A stretch of DNA of 64,000 bases from the human T2T-CHM13v2.0 reference genome, Homo sapiens, in the NCBI GenBank assembly GCA_009914755.4, contig CP068257.2, positions 20,608,001 through 20,672,000 on the forward strand, written 5' to 3'. Below are positions 28,891 through 40,305 of the stretch, piece by piece. The stretch's first letter is position 1. Each line of letters begins with the position of its first letter. A program made the position numbers and the translations under genes. The notes beneath the pieces were generated by a model that made no database searches, was not told the DNA's origin, and saw only the letters and a list, made by a program, of their open reading frames with translations.

Positions 28891-29380
28891 TGTACTCCTA
28901 AAGAAAGAAGCTGAGACATAAAATATAATTTTAAAGAATGTTCTTGAGCCAAAATGAGGACCGTTGCCCAGGAAACATTTCCAGATTACCTTGGAAGTTT
29001 CTCTGTTTGGTCTTTGTTACAGGTCAGTTTTTAAGGGCAAAAAGGGGGACAAGAAGTGGGCTACAGCAAAGTTGTCAGGAATTGTTTTACAGAAATAACA
29101 TTGATTAATGATTGGCTATACATTTTTAAACTATAGACTATGAGTTATGGTGTCCAGCATGTGGTGTCGTTAGGTTAGTTTGTAGTAACTTGTGGCATCG
29201 GTCAGTCTAGAGTCCACATAGCAAGCAGCTTCAGTGATGATTGCATTGCTCAAGGGGGATAGGAGTGGGACATGATGGGTGTCTCATTTCAGTGCCTCTC
29301 TGGGCCTGACAACTTAAAGGGGGCTCACATTTCTCAGATAACAAGTTTATTTTCTTTATTATTTTCCCTTTTGGTCAAAA
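28891..29380 (-). repeat. ERV 3' LTR (relative to the minus-strand provirus)
   Basis: Aligns to 39471-40305 once the THE1 insert is removed, for example ttcttgagccaaaatgaggaccgttgcc… / tacttgagccaaagtgaggacagctgcc…, …ttatggtgtccagcatgtggtgtcgttag… / …ttatggtgtccagtatgcagcattgttag…, …cacatagcaagcagcttc… / …cacatagcaagcagcttc…. A purine-rich tract (RC: aaaagggaaaataa) adjoins it at about 29375-29395, consistent with a polypurine tract. Confidence 0.65.
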
Positions 29381-29857
29381 TATTTCCTCTTGAAAGCAAT
29401 CATGATCAAAGTCTGAATTTTAAGATGTACCTTGTCGCCAAGAAGCCTTATTCTTGGATAATCCTGTCGCATATTGGGGAAAATGAGAAAATGTCATGGT
29501 GAGGAATTTTAAGACTGTGCAAAAGCCAAATTGCTATTAAAGAGTGGCAAAAATGCAACCTTAGTTGTTGATTTACATAGCTGCTATTACTTGTTGAATC
29601 ATATCTAGTCTTCAAAGTACCATGATTTTGGTTTCCTTAGAAGAAGTAAAATGAAAGATACATAGCATTAATAAGTTTAATAGTAGAAATATTATGCACA
29701 TAAGGATTGTAATGAAAAAGATAATTTGTTTGGGAACCTATTCCATCTAAGACCCAACTAAAAACTAAATGAAGTAAACTAAATCCAGTTTCTTCTTTGT
29801 ATACTTGTAGCCAAGTGGCTTCTTTGCTAAACTTTTTCTGGAAGAGTTTCTACTTTT

Positions 29858-29891
29858 ATAGGAAGTATATATATATATATATACTTCCTAT
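29858..29891. repeat. 34-bp perfect palindrome containing (TA)8, followed by 'acttcctata' direct repeats to about 29950
   Basis: ataggaagtatatatatatatatatacttcctat equals its own reverse complement. Confidence 0.85.
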
Positions 29892-30765
29892 AAAATATAT
29901 ACTTCCTATATACTTCCTATAAAAGTATATGCTTCTATAATATATATATAACAAGAAGTATTTATCACCAAGCATACATCTCCTTGCCCAGTCAGCATAT
30001 AGCCTAAAAAATGCAACTCTCTAGTACAACCTTAGCCGGTTAATCAATAGCTTTTTGTTGAGCTGTGATGGAGGTTACAGTTTCATCACAATATTTCCTA
30101 AAGTTATAAAAAAAATTATTACCATGTGTTCATGGAAAGTGACACCCAACCAAGGCAAAAAAGCATTCTCCCAATTAAATGCATGTAACTATCTTCTTGA
30201 TGGCTAGGCAGATAATGAGCAGATTTCTCCCAAATAGAATAACCATCCCGAATAGATTAGTGGTCACACCTAAAGAAAAGTTTGAGGGAACTAGTCTAGT
30301 GTTGTGGTTTTTTCAGAGCTATATGTACATAGAGAAGGGAACTCATCCAGTTTGTTGTTTTTTTTTTCATAGCAATAGATATAGACAGAGGAGGAAGAGA
30401 TATTGCTTTTCATTGTTTCATGCTCTTAGACGTTTATAGGCCCATCAACTAGTATGATGTATCCTAAGAGATTATATGTAGAATAATTTTACCAAAACCA
30501 GCAAGAGAGGAGTCCTATCATACGAAAGAGGCCTAAAAACACGAGTATACTCGTCAACACAAATAGGAGACCAAATGTTTCAGGTGGAGTAAACATTAGA
30601 ATCGTGAGGAACTGGGTATACAGCCCAGGTTTGGTATCTTGGCAGAATGGCAGAATCAGACTACCTCAGGTGTCAGCTACTTGATGCCTTGGTCAGAAAG
30701 ACTGTGAGTCAGCTTCAGTTAACCTTCTCCAGTGACGGAAGATGTCTACTCTGGTGGAGTTGCTT

Positions 30766-37995: not shown

Positions 37996-38030
37996 ATTTT
38001 TTTTTTTTTTTTTTTTTTTTTTGCAAACAC
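37996..38030. repeat. Poly-T (about 35 nt) homopolymer
   Basis: aatgaattttttttttttttttttttttttttttttgcaaac seen directly; there is no Alu body next to it. Confidence 0.8.
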
Positions 38031-39470
38031 TATGGGATCTTGGAGAAGCTCTGGGAAGTCTTTTATACTATTCTTAAGTTCAGTCTTTGTCCAACGGGTG
38101 TGCATAATAGGAGGCTCACATCTTTCTGCAGGTTTTACCTTGAAAGGGGCTGCAAAAATAGGAGTTTCAGAAAGGATGTCAGAGATGTAGAAAATTTCCT
38201 CAGGTGGTCAGGGAGGTAGAGTTGAAGGCAAGTAAGGACAGGAAAGTTTAGATACAAGAAGATATAAAGGTTCAGGCGTGGGTGGAGAAGGAGCAGTGGA
38301 GGTGGAAGGGAGAAGAAGGTCTCCTAAGTGAAGTCCTTTTTAATTCAGAAATAGTCTCAGATATCTTTTTCTTTATCTCCTGAATGGAGGCAATTTTTTC
38401 AACCTTTTTAGAAGCTTCTACCTGCCATTAGAAGTGAGTCTCTCATTCAATATTTCTGGTTTTAAAACCAGTTTTTCCGGTTGTACATGCAAATAATTTT
38501 GTAAGCATTTCAAAAGACCCACATTTCAGCCACTGTAGCTTATCACCAACCTGGGCCATGGGGGTCCATTTTTCTAGATATTTACAAAAGAACACTCTTT
38601 AAGTATTTTACATAAAACCAAATGGTGTTTTTAAAGGAGATCATCCCTTTAAAAAGTGCTCATATTTTGAAGCTTGATTTTCCATAATTTAAGAACTTTT
38701 GGAAAGCGTCCAAGGCTGAAAACATGCTTTGGGTCAAAGTATGCTGCCTATGAGCATCACTCCCCAGAGCGTCACCTAAACATCATGAATTGCTATATTG
38801 GGTGTCTCAGAATTTCTGGCTAATTACAGTGGCAGTGGCAGAGTGCTCAGAGTGCCAGGTGACCAACTCTTATGTGCACTTTCTGGCTGAGCTGAAAGTC
38901 CCTCCAGGTTTTCTTTTTTCAGGGAAGCCCTATAAGGCTGCTATACATCACAGCCAAATGTTGAGGCCCCTCTGCAAAGTCTGTAGTCTCCTAGAGCACC
39001 CAAATGGGTCGGGGGAGCAATTGCCTCTTCTCTTTTGAATAGAAAATAAGCCTCATAAAATACAGGGGCAGAATTTGGTTACAATAAGAAATAAAGCAGG
39101 TCCAGAAAAGCATTACTTCAAAACAATTGTTCAGATAGAGAAAATCCATCAGTGTTCACTGTTTAACCAATAAGCCAAACTTCTGGCCAAAGGCAAAGGT
39201 AGAAAAGGCAGCTTTTTTGTTTTTGTTTTGTTCCTGAGACCCAAATATACCAGATGGAAACCTCCATTCTAGAAAGGGAGGGTTGGAATAGACAGATAAA
39301 GAAAAGTCTAGACATCATCAAAGAGTAGGGAGGTCAGAATCCAGAAGGACTCATTCCTTACACTGGATAATGCTGTCAGAGGCAGAACACAAGGGGTTCT
39401 AGGTGACCAGGCATCAAGTCCAGAAAGAGTGTTGCATGGTGGGATGGATTGCTCTGAACCCTGCTTGCAG

Positions 39471-40305
39471 TGTCAGAAATGTTGATCTAAATAATGAAAT
39501 TGAGTGACAAAATAAAATTTTGGAGTTTACTTGAGCCAAAGTGAGGACAGCTGCCTATGAAACACTTCCGGGTTACCTCGTGTATTAGTCTGGTTTCACA
39601 CTGCTAATAAAGACCTACCCGAGACTGGGTAATTTATAAAGGAAAGTAGTTTAATGGACTCACAGTACCACATAGCTAGGGAGGCCTCGCAATCATGGTG
39701 GAAGGCAAAGGAGAAGCAAAGGCACATCTTACATGGTGGCAGTCAAGAGAGCATATGTAGGAGAACCCTCATTTATAAAACCATCAGATCTCATGAGACG
39801 TATTCACTACCACGAGAACAGGTATGGGGGAAATCGCCCCCATGATTCAATTGTCTCCACCTGGTTCTGCCCTTGAGCTTTGGGTGGGGACACAGCCAAA
39901 CCATAACACCTTGTGAAGTGCATTTTTCAGCTTTTGTTACAAGCATGTTTTTAAAGAAAGCAGGGAAAGAAGTGGACTGAAACAAGGTTGTTTGTCAGAA
40001 ATTATCATTGGTTTACAGAAATAACATTAATTAGTGATTGACTATACATTGTTGAACATAGGGTATGAATTATGGTGTCCAGTATGCAGCATTGTTAGAT
40101 TAATTTCTAGCAACTTGTGGCATCAGCCTAGAGCCCACATAGCAAGCAGCTTCTGGAGATGAATACTTAACTCAAGGCAAGGGAGCAAAACATGGCTGTT
40201 GTCTCATTCCAGTGCCTGTCTGGATCTGATAATTTAAAGGCTCCCATTTCTCAGATAAGTTTCCTTTCTTCCTCATTTTGGAGCTTGTTGCCTTTTAATA
40301 ACTTA
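39471..40305 (-). repeat. ERV 5' LTR, interrupted by the THE1 LTR at 39581-39908
   Basis: Homology to the 3' LTR resumes exactly after the THE1 insert (…ggttacctcg[THE1]ccttgtgaagtgcatttt… versus 3' LTR …gattaccttggaagtttc…). Confidence 0.65.
39581..39908 (-). mobile_element. THE1-type MaLR LTR (with internal deletion) inserted into the ERV 5' LTR
   Basis: tgtattagtctggtttcacactgctaataaagacctacccgagactgggtaatttataaaggaaag…gattcaattgtctccacctgg…tttgggtggggacacagccaaaccataaca is the reverse complement of THE1. Flanking cctcg / ccttg looks like a 5-bp target-site duplication. Confidence 0.8.

What the first reader, a model, noticed from the sequence alone, without database searches (positions are those of the whole stretch)
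28891..40305. Degraded full-length class I (gamma-like) ERV provirus with both LTRs, acting as a landing pad for five later TE insertions
Seen in sequence: two ~490-bp homologous direct repeats (28891-29380 and 39471-40305, the latter split by THE1) flank an internal region. That region's minus-strand translation carries clear MLV-like RT connection-domain (…VLTQKHGEQNRPARYYSQQLDAVATGIPPCLRAI…) and RNase H (…IIKVLGHSK…GNHFTDAVAKNEAL…) blocks in the correct 5'→3' order. Inference: this is a complete LTR-gag-pro-pol-(env)-LTR provirus of about 8 kb (net) on the minus strand. The space between RNase H/IN and the 3' LTR (about 29380-30765 plus 31399-31701) looks too short for IN plus env, so env is probably partly deleted. 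Because a THE1 LTR and a cut-and-paste DNA transposon have inserted into it, the provirus predates those families' activity (established: THE1 and DNA transposons were last active roughly 35-55 Myr ago in anthropoid primates). This makes it an old, probably non-HERV-K/H lineage whose family I could not name by eye.
Basis: partly seen in the sequence, partly recalled or inferred. Interest (0 to 1): 0.5.

Follow-up and report, generated by a model that had tools for sequence, protein, structure and literature searches.

The report
Old degraded endogenous retrovirus with nested repeats
This is the dead remnant of a retrovirus that entered a primate ancestor's germ line roughly 60-100 million years ago and was later hit by five other mobile elements; it is an ordinary, already-catalogued kind of genomic fossil.

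Summary
Two ~470-bp direct repeats, 76.7% identical (blastn E 1e-64), flank a minus-strand retroviral interior. The layout is LTR, PBS, leader, gag, protease, RT, RNase H, integrase, env remnant, PPT, LTR.

Stitched across frameshifts, pol matches retroviral Gag-Pol proteins over 99% of its length (E 4e-111). Its best solved-structure matches are XMRV/MLV RT-RNase H (E 2e-79). It carries the MLV-type integrase C-terminal domain.

Gag and pol are closest to the published human HEPSI3 and HEPSI2 groups (basal, epsilon-like class I) and to an opossum ERV, at about 45-53% identity in RT. The LTR differs from the HEPSI3 reference, so the Repbase/Dfam family name remains unresolved.

A second copy of the family, found in a public assembly, shows that the 1.4 kb after pol is env. 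The TM part is present but ruined, and SU is too short.

The five nested insertions are real: two Alus, one 5'-inverted L1, a hAT MITE and a THE1 LTR. Four have recognisable target-site duplications.

LTR divergence (K2P 0.286) gives about 65 Myr at 2.2e-9 per site per year. Every gene is broken, with 28 stops in pol. This is ordinary and already known; interest is low.

The parts
28891..29361 (-). 3' LTR (471 bp). In sense orientation it starts TAATAAAG (from TGAGGAAG) and ends GGAGTACA.
   Evidence: Homologous to the 5' LTR. The start is fixed by comparison with L001 and the 5' LTR.
29362..29372 (-). Polypurine tract AAAAGGGAAAA, directly abutting the 3' LTR.
   Evidence: Read from the sequence. 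L001 has AAAAGAAAC at the same place.
29373..30764 (-). Degraded env remnant. The TM part is about 29640-30200. The immunosuppressive-domain remnant is at 29980-30031. The CX6CC region is overwritten by a TA-rich microsatellite at 29860-29979. At most about 580 bp is left for SU.
   Evidence: A 70-aa stop-free piece (29640-29849) hits P0028 (E 6e-8; BLASTP 2e-18). L001 aligns to 30334-29204 (E 4e-113). The L001 TM matches the syncytin-2 TM (E 8.5e-6) and the HEPSI2a env (E 3e-13). Minus frame 0 has 17 stops against 33-34 in the other two minus frames. Pfam and word-based searches of the window sequence itself found nothing.
30765..31063 (-). Alu insertion 1, with its A-tail at 30765-30775.
   Evidence: Sequence read.
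31080..31400 (-). Alu insertion 2, with a 13-bp target-site duplication: ggttatgttttct at 31067-31079 and ggttaccttttct at 31401-31413.
31414..31691 (-). Integrase C-terminal part (MLVIN_C-type).
   Evidence: tblastn gives 31567-31406 with P0001 (E 2.5e-5) and 31567-31418 with HEPSI2 pol (45%, E 3e-8). Pfam MLVIN_C scores 30.4 bits against a cutoff of 29.2.
31692..33923 (+). A single 5'-truncated, 5'-inverted L1 insertion. The minus-strand piece runs about 31692-32504 and the plus-strand piece about 32465-33923, ending in a poly-A tail. The target-site duplication AAGT[A/G]TAGGCTC is at 31680-31691 and 33924-33935.
   Evidence: The minus piece matches human L1 ORF2p residues 646-867 (E 3e-119). 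The plus piece matches residues 872-1066 (E 1e-107). The two stretches are contiguous in ORF2p, as expected for twin priming. Ends read.
33936..34700 (-). Integrase N-terminal and catalytic core.
   Evidence: Pfam rve at 34154-34393. tblastn 34495-34025 with P0001 (E 1e-14). HEPSI2 pol 34963-34079 and 34016-33927.
34769..35383 (-). RNase H.
   Evidence: PDB XMRV RNase H 3v1o, E 8e-18. Pfam RNase_H below cutoff, 18 bits.
35425..36101 (-). RT palm (YVDD motif decayed to CVDG), thumb and connection domain.
   Evidence: Pfam RT_RNaseH_2 scores 31 bits against a cutoff of 29.8.
36111..36467 (.). Non-autonomous hAT-type DNA transposon (MITE) inserted in RT. Terminal inverted repeats are CAGGGGTCCCCA / TGGGGACCTCTG. 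The decayed 8-bp target-site duplication is ctctagta / ccctaaca.
36502..36944 (-). RT fingers/palm, 5' part.
37141..37337 (-). Protease (LRDTEATLSVL and LLGRDFF motifs).
   Evidence: HEPSI3 pol putein residues 17-81, 41-71% identity, E 2e-12. Weak pairwise hit to P0017.
37470..38679 (-). gag (matrix and capsid). There is no CCHC zinc knuckle. A 26-nt A-run lies at 37997-38022.
   Evidence: BLASTP to the opossum protein P0027 gives E 2e-25 over 343 aa. HEPSI3 gag tblastn gives E 8e-11 and 1e-22. No CCHC motif found. No Pfam or PDB capsid hit.
39458..39475 (-). Candidate primer-binding site TGACACTGCAAGCAGGGT, 4 nt after the 5' LTR.
   Evidence: Matches 14 of 18 positions of the complement of the tRNA-Ser(UGA) 3' end as recalled from memory. 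Two of the four mismatches are CpG decay. Sequence read. Tentative.
39480..40275 (-). 5' LTR (463 bp net), interrupted by the THE1 insertion.
39581..39908 (-). THE1-type MaLR solo LTR nested in the 5' LTR. The 5-bp target-site duplication is CCTCG (39576-39580) and CCTTG (39909-39913).

Best explanation
Window 28891-40275 (minus strand) is one ancient, non-functional class I endogenous retrovirus provirus in a primate (Alu-bearing) genome.

A retrovirus integrated once in the germ line, creating two identical LTRs. The copy then decayed neutrally. Its genes accumulated dozens of stops and frameshifts, it lost the gag NC region and most of env SU, and a TA microsatellite grew inside env TM.

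Like any old neutral DNA, it was then hit by later mobile elements: a hAT MITE in RT, a THE1 LTR in the 5' LTR, a twin-primed L1 in integrase, and two Alus at the pol/env junction.

By gag, pol and env it belongs near the basal, epsilon-like HEPSI2/HEPSI3 lineage of class I, which has a relative in opossum.

Shown here: the structure, the homologies, and the nesting order. Inferred: the single integration event, the age, and the lack of any present function.
For: - LTR pair: E 1.5e-64, 76.7% identity, K2P 0.286.
- Stitched pol: E 4e-111 at 99% query coverage to Gag-Pol proteins carrying RVP, RVT_1, RNase_H, rve and MLVIN_C.
- Solved structures: XMRV/MLV RT-RNase H at E 2e-79 to 7e-75, against 3e-16 for foamy virus and 1e-12 for Ty3.
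- Pfam on the stitched pol: RT_RNaseH_2 and MLVIN_C above their cutoffs; rve, RNase_H and RVT_1 below cutoff but in the correct order.
- Real database proteins map colinearly on the minus strand from 36920 to 31406, skipping exactly the hAT and L1 inserts.
- gag: E 2e-25 to the opossum protein K7E0E8. HEPSI3 gag gives E 1e-22.
- env: L001 aligns from env into the LTR at E 4e-113. Its TM matches syncytin-2 and HEPSI2a env.
- PPT and PBS lie at the expected LTR junctions.
- Four of the five inserts have recognisable target-site duplications; that of the first Alu is unclear.
- pol has 28 in-frame stops and many frame changes, and gag has 9 stops. No stop-free stretch in a retroviral frame exceeds 110 aa.
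Against: - The provirus's own target-site duplication is only AAAA vs AATA (3 of 4), which is not informative.
- The 3' LTR starts TA, not TG.
- The PBS assignment rests on a tRNA sequence recalled from memory and has four mismatches.
- gag gives no Pfam or PDB hit, and env gives no direct hit from the window sequence except one 70-aa piece.
- The LTR has no similarity to the HEPSI3 reference chain, so the family is not pinned down.
- The age depends on the assumed substitution rate. No orthologous locus could be checked.
Confidence: 0.93

Rival explanations
1. The structure is a mosaic, not a single integration. Either two solo LTRs of one family happen to bracket an unrelated ERV interior, or the element is a recombinant between different class I lineages (for example HEPSI3-like gag-pol with HEPSI2a-like env and a third LTR type).
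For: Vargiu et al. 2016 (PMC4724089) report that mosaic HERVs are common. In this element, gag and RT are closest to HEPSI3, RNase H/IN was matched with HEPSI2 pol, and the TM is closest to HEPSI2a env. The LTR is unlike HEPSI3 chain 4269.
Against: L001 is an independent copy that carries the same env-PPT-LTR junction. This LTR therefore belongs with this env at the family level. A candidate PBS follows the 5' LTR directly and a PPT precedes the 3' LTR. The mixed best hits mostly reflect which puteins were available in the truncated supplement: the HEPSI3 pol putein lacks integrase.
Confidence: 0.05
2. The two ~470-bp repeats are a local segmental duplication or a non-LTR repeat, and the retroviral interior is a fragment without its own LTRs.
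For: The provirus's target-site duplication is not convincing, and the LTRs carry no clear TATA box or AATAAA signal.
Against: The repeats end exactly at the PBS and PPT junctions. They start TG (5' copy) and end CA (both copies). The same repeat follows env in the unrelated contig L001. No other copies occur in the window. Homology stops at the LTR edges.
Confidence: 0.02

Closest known systems
HEPSI3 and HEPSI2 (epsilon-like class I HERV groups; Vargiu et al. 2016, Retrovirology 13:7, PMC4724089; overlapping Repbase PRIMA4, MER4-int and MER57-int annotations)
   Same: gag, protease, RT, RNase H and integrase align colinearly with the published HEPSI3 chain 4269 and HEPSI2 puteins. RT identity is 45-55%, gag 31-35%, and RNase H/IN 30-52%. 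The family's TM has the HEPSI2a-type immunosuppressive domain L(E/N)N(H/R)IALDY(I/L)LAKQGG. The raw LTR divergence of 23% falls in the 13-31% range reported for the HEPSI supergroup.
   Different: Protein identity is only about 45-50%, so this is a different family, not a copy of those chains. The LTR, leader and env DNA of HEPSI3 chain 4269 show no similarity. The PBS differs: Lys-like TGGTGCCCAACATTGGGC in chain 4269, against a Ser-like candidate here. This copy lacks the NC zinc knuckle that HEPSI3 gag has.
Murine leukemia virus / XMRV (Gammaretrovirus)
   Same: The gene order is the same. RT-RNase H aligns end to end with XMRV and MLV RT structures (E 2e-79). The MLV-type integrase C-terminal domain is present. 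The family has a gamma-type TM.
   Different: RT identity is only 31-44%, lower than to HEPSI3 or the opossum ERV. gag is not detectably similar to MLV gag. The element is dead and endogenous.
Opossum (Monodelphis domestica) ERV-derived protein K7E0E8 (P0027)
   Same: It is the only protein in the 5.8-billion-sequence set that matches this gag (E 1e-19; BLASTP 2e-25 over 343 aa). It has the highest RT identity of everything compared, 49-53%.
   Different: It comes from a marsupial genome. It is a gene model lacking protease, NC and integrase. Its genomic context could not be retrieved.
Syncytin-2 (HERV-FRD env)
   Same: The TM ectodomain of the sister copy L001 aligns with the syncytin-2 heptad, immunosuppressive domain and CC motif (E 8.5e-6).
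   Different: Syncytin-2 is an intact, co-opted gene. The env here is a stop-riddled remnant with a microsatellite through the CC motif.

Membership tests
LTR retroelement / retroviral provirus | Two direct long terminal repeats bracketing the coding interior | tested here: met
   28891-29361 and 39480-40275; E 1.5e-64, 76.7% identity
LTR retroelement / retroviral provirus | gag, protease, RT, RNase H and integrase in that order on one strand | tested here: met
   Colinear tblastn hits from 38679 down to 31406 on the minus strand. Pfam domain order confirmed.
LTR retroelement / retroviral provirus | PBS after the 5' LTR and polypurine tract before the 3' LTR | tested here: inconclusive
   The PPT AAAAGGGAAAA abuts the LTR. 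The PBS candidate matches tRNA-Ser(UGA) at 14 of 18 positions, but the tRNA sequence was recalled from memory.
LTR retroelement / retroviral provirus | Short target-site duplication flanking the element; LTRs start TG and end CA | tested here: inconclusive
   Flanks are AAAA vs AATA (3 of 4). The 5' LTR runs TG...CA and the 3' LTR runs TA...CA.
Class I ERV (gamma/epsilon-like, Repbase ERV1) | Pol closest to gammaretroviral or epsilonretroviral pol, not to beta-, spuma- or lentiviral pol | tested here: met
   PDB: XMRV/MLV RT at E 2e-79 against foamy virus at 3e-16. No beta- or lentiviral RT was found at E<=1e-3. All top database hits carry MLVIN_C.
Class I ERV (gamma/epsilon-like, Repbase ERV1) | MLV-type integrase C-terminal domain | tested here: met
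   Pfam PF18697 scores 30.4 bits against a cutoff of 29.2, at 31567-31409
Class I ERV (gamma/epsilon-like, Repbase ERV1) | Gamma-type TM with immunosuppressive domain and CX6CC | tested here: inconclusive
   Met in the sister copy L001. In the window only a decayed immunosuppressive domain (30031-29980) remains, and the CC region is replaced by a microsatellite.
Class I ERV (gamma/epsilon-like, Repbase ERV1) | One CCHC zinc knuckle in the gag NC | tested here: not met
   No CCHC motif in any minus frame of 36900-39480. About 0.3 kb is missing relative to HEPSI3 between capsid and protease. This is most simply a deletion in this copy.
HEPSI supergroup (Vargiu et al. 2016) | gag and pol most similar to the HEPSI group sequences | tested here: met
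   Of the HERV group sequences held in the truncated supplement, only HEPSI3 shares the peptide words LTQKHG, KLQFC and FKGHK. tblastn gives E 3e-44 for pol and 1e-22 for gag. Groups beyond the cut of the file could not be compared.
HEPSI supergroup (Vargiu et al. 2016) | Pol clusters with walleye dermal sarcoma virus in a phylogeny | not tested
   No WDSV or full HERV reference set was available, and no tree was built.
HEPSI3 family as represented by chain 4269 | Same LTR and DNA-level similarity of the interior | tested here: not met
   blastn and tblastx of the chain 4269 LTR, leader and env against 28800-40400 found nothing significant.
Class II (HERV-K/HML) or class III (HERV-L) ERV | dUTPase or G-patch domains, and beta- or spuma-like pol | tested here: not met
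   No such Pfam domains in the raw or stitched frames. The PDB ranking favours gamma RT by 60 orders of magnitude.

The most novel reading that the evidence does not exclude
The provirus and its sister copy L001 could represent a small HEPSI-related class I family whose LTR and interior are not yet in Repbase/Dfam under their own name. Its closest gag relative would be in a marsupial, which hints at a lineage that infected both therian branches or crossed between them.
Probability: 0.05. Interest if true: 0.25.

Novelty: already known. Interest (0 to 1): 0.1.

Why it matters
It matters little beyond annotation. It is a clean worked example of dating by nesting: the ERV is older than the THE1 LTR, hAT MITE, L1 and Alu insertions it contains. 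It is also a member of the sparsely populated epsilon-like HEPSI neighbourhood of human class I ERVs. No gene is intact, and no evidence of exaptation was seen.

Tried and rejected
- Pfam on raw X-masked frames gave only weak rve and RT_RNaseH hits. It gave nothing for the gag or post-pol regions. Stitching the frames was needed.
- A search of solved structures with the capsid stretch found nothing.
- The opossum protein's genomic locus is not on record.
- The PBS string and the Ser-PBS strings were not found in the Vargiu supplements.
- The word-based protein search of the whole post-pol frame found nothing.
A 70-aa stop-free piece then succeeded. Its second hit, P0029, is a repetitive bacterial DUF1800 protein and was rejected as spurious.
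- HEPSI3 chain 4269 LTR and env DNA showed no similarity to the window.
- The HEPSI2a env consensus did not detect SU in the window or in L001. Its N-terminus is an Alu translation that lit up every Alu in the window.
- Rfam found nothing in the window.
- I considered the LTR start TGACC at 29378, but L001 and the 5' LTR point to 29361.
- I considered whether the THE1-like LTRs at 19443 and 27370 are a pair. They are 78% identical, no closer to each other than to the consensus.
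Full report
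**Observation**

The two direct repeats exist. blastn aligns 28981-29365 with 39901-40279 (73%, E 1.5e-64) and 28898-29008 with 39487-39595 (E 2e-16). The repeat finder sees the same pairs.

The gap in the upstream copy is a THE1-type MaLR LTR on the minus strand at 39581-39908. It is flanked by a 5-bp target-site duplication, CCTCG and CCTTG.

With the THE1 and one duplication copy removed, MAFFT aligns the two repeats at 76.7% identity over 455 columns. There are 66 transitions, 40 transversions and 9 indel events, giving K2P 0.286. No further copy of the repeat occurs in the 64-kb window.

**Coding interior: pol**

Raw minus-strand frames with stops masked gave weak Pfam hits. These were the integrase core (34154-34393, E 3e-4) and the RT connection domain (35458-35685, E 1e-4).

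It showed a colinear series of tblastn hits from RT (36914) to the integrase C-terminus (31409). The series is interrupted exactly at 36101-36502 and 31567-34073.

I stitched the frames into a 1003-aa pseudo-pol with 28 stops. It gave these results:

- It matches retroviral Gag-Pol proteins at E 4e-111 with 99% query coverage. All top hits carry RVT_1, RNase_H, rve and MLVIN_C.
- Those real proteins map back onto the window in the same colinear way.
- Pfam on the pseudo-pol scores RT_RNaseH_2 (31 bits) and MLVIN_C (30.4 bits) above their curated cutoffs. rve, RNase_H and RVT_1 fall below cutoff but lie in the right order.
- Among solved structures, the best matches are XMRV and MLV RT-RNase H, aligned end to end (E 2e-79 to 7e-75). 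Foamy virus scores 3e-16 and Ty3 scores 1e-12.

Class I is therefore established.

**Coding interior: gag and protease**

MLV gag, Pfam Gag_p30 and solved capsid structures see nothing here.

A stitched pseudo-gag finds exactly one protein in the 5.8-billion-sequence set. It is the opossum protein K7E0E8 (E 1e-19), which aligns over 343 residues by BLASTP (E 2e-25). That protein also has the highest RT identity of anything compared, 49-53%.

The supplement of Vargiu et al. 2016 (PMC4724089) holds group sequences. A peptide-word search pointed to HEPSI3. tblastn with the published sequences gave:

| Query | Window region | Result |
|---|---|---|
| HEPSI3 gag | 38679-38335 | E 8e-11 |
| HEPSI3 gag | 38180-37470 | E 1e-22 |
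| HEPSI3 pol (protease part) | 37337-37141 | up to 71% identity |
| HEPSI3 pol (RT part) | 36944-35215 | 38-55% identity |
| HEPSI2 pol (RNase H, integrase) | 35277-33927 and 31567-31418 | E 3e-40 |

There is no CCHC zinc knuckle. About 0.3 kb is missing between capsid and protease relative to HEPSI3.

The HEPSI3 reference chain's LTR, leader and env DNA show no similarity to this element. It is therefore a related but distinct family.

The paper gives LTR divergence of 13-31% for the HEPSI supergroup, which brackets the 23% seen here.

**Env**

The 1.4 kb between the end of pol and the 3' LTR gave nothing with Pfam, with MLV TM, or with a word-based search. However, minus frame 0 has half the stops of the other two minus frames.

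An exhaustive search with the 70-aa stop-free piece 29640-29849 hit a 94-aa protein, P0028 (E 6e-8; BLASTP 2e-18). Its contig L001 (1338 bp, Logan SRR30769983) aligns to window 30334-29204 at E 4e-113. Identity is about 74% in ungapped columns. The alignment runs from env through the polypurine tract into the LTR. L001 is therefore a second copy of the same family.

The TM translation of L001 reads IVLENHIALDYILAKQGGIRMGGNTCCVHIN. It matches the syncytin-2 TM (E 8.5e-6) and the published HEPSI2a env consensus (E 3e-13).

In the window, the immunosuppressive-domain remnant lies at 30031-29980. The CC motif is overwritten by a TA-rich microsatellite at 29860-29979. Only about 580 bp remains between pol and the presumed SU/TM boundary near 30200. 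Whether the truncation is specific to this copy is untested.

**Junctions**

L001 and the 5' LTR share the LTR start TGAGGAAGAAA. This sets the 5' LTR at 39480-40275 and the 3' LTR at 28891-29361. The polypurine tract AAAAGGGAAAA (29362-29372) directly precedes the 3' LTR.

Four nucleotides after the 5' LTR lies TGACACTGCAAGCAGGGT (39458-39475). It matches the complement of the tRNA-Ser(UGA) 3' end at 14 of 18 positions, with two of the mismatches being CpG decay. The tRNA sequence is from memory, so this assignment is tentative.

The flanks give AAAA vs AATA, which is not an informative target-site duplication.

**Nested insertions**

1. THE1 LTR, as described above.
2. A 357-bp hAT-type MITE at 36111-36467 inside RT. 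It has terminal inverted repeats CAGGGGTCCCCA / TGGGGACCTCTG and a decayed 8-bp duplication.
3. One L1 at 31692-33923.
   - The minus-strand piece is ORF2p residues 646-867 (E 3e-119).
   - The plus-strand piece is residues 872-1066 (E 1e-107).
   - The two pieces are contiguous in ORF2p, so this is a single twin-primed insertion.
   - It has a poly-A tail and a 12-bp duplication.
4. An Alu at 30776-31063; I did not find a clear duplication for it.
5. An Alu at 31110-31397 with a 13-bp duplication.

Removing these leaves about 7.8 kb.

The window carries about twelve Alus in 64 kb. Two Alus in 11 kb is therefore background density, and 'landing pad' has no mechanistic content.

**Age and state**

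K2P 0.286 between the LTRs gives about 65 Myr at 2.2e-9 per site per year, and more at slower rates. This is consistent with the nesting of THE1 and a hAT element. By established knowledge, both were last active in early anthropoids.

No retroviral frame stays open for more than 110 codons.

**Verdict**

This is an ordinary, dead, ancient class I provirus of the HEPSI neighbourhood. The exact Repbase/Dfam family name could not be determined with the tools at hand.

Noticed in passing
window 14-244, 7174-7531, 19443-19788, 27370-27723, 61621-62035: Five more THE1/MST-like MaLR LTRs lie in the window. The two at 19443 and 27370 are in the same orientation and 7.9 kb apart.
   Followed up: partly
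This sets the background at about one Alu per 5 kb. The only ORFs of 150 aa or more in the whole window are the L1 ORF2 fragments.
   Followed up: no
window 29860-29979 and 42660-42910: The TA-rich microsatellite that overwrites the env CX6CC region resembles a second TA-rich tract about 13 kb away.
   Followed up: no
window 37997-38022: A perfect 26-nt T run (an A run on the coding strand) sits inside the gag capsid region. It is absent from the opossum and HEPSI3 gag alignments. It is probably a homopolymer expansion and not a separate insertion.
   Followed up: no
P0027 (Monodelphis domestica K7E0E8): The only database protein that matches this gag is from a marsupial, and it is also the closest RT (49-53%). 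Its genomic locus could not be retrieved.
   Followed up: partly
Vargiu et al. 2016 supplement 4, HEPSI2a env consensus, residues 1-50: The N-terminus of the published HEPSI2a env 'putein' is a translated Alu (FLVEMRSCYVAQAGPKLL...[14 protein letters not shown]). It hits every Alu in the window, which is an artefact in the reference sequence.
   Followed up: no
L001 1-1338 (Logan SRR30769983): This is a second copy of the same ERV family, with a better-preserved TM and the env-PPT-LTR junction. The organism of the run is unknown.
   Followed up: partly
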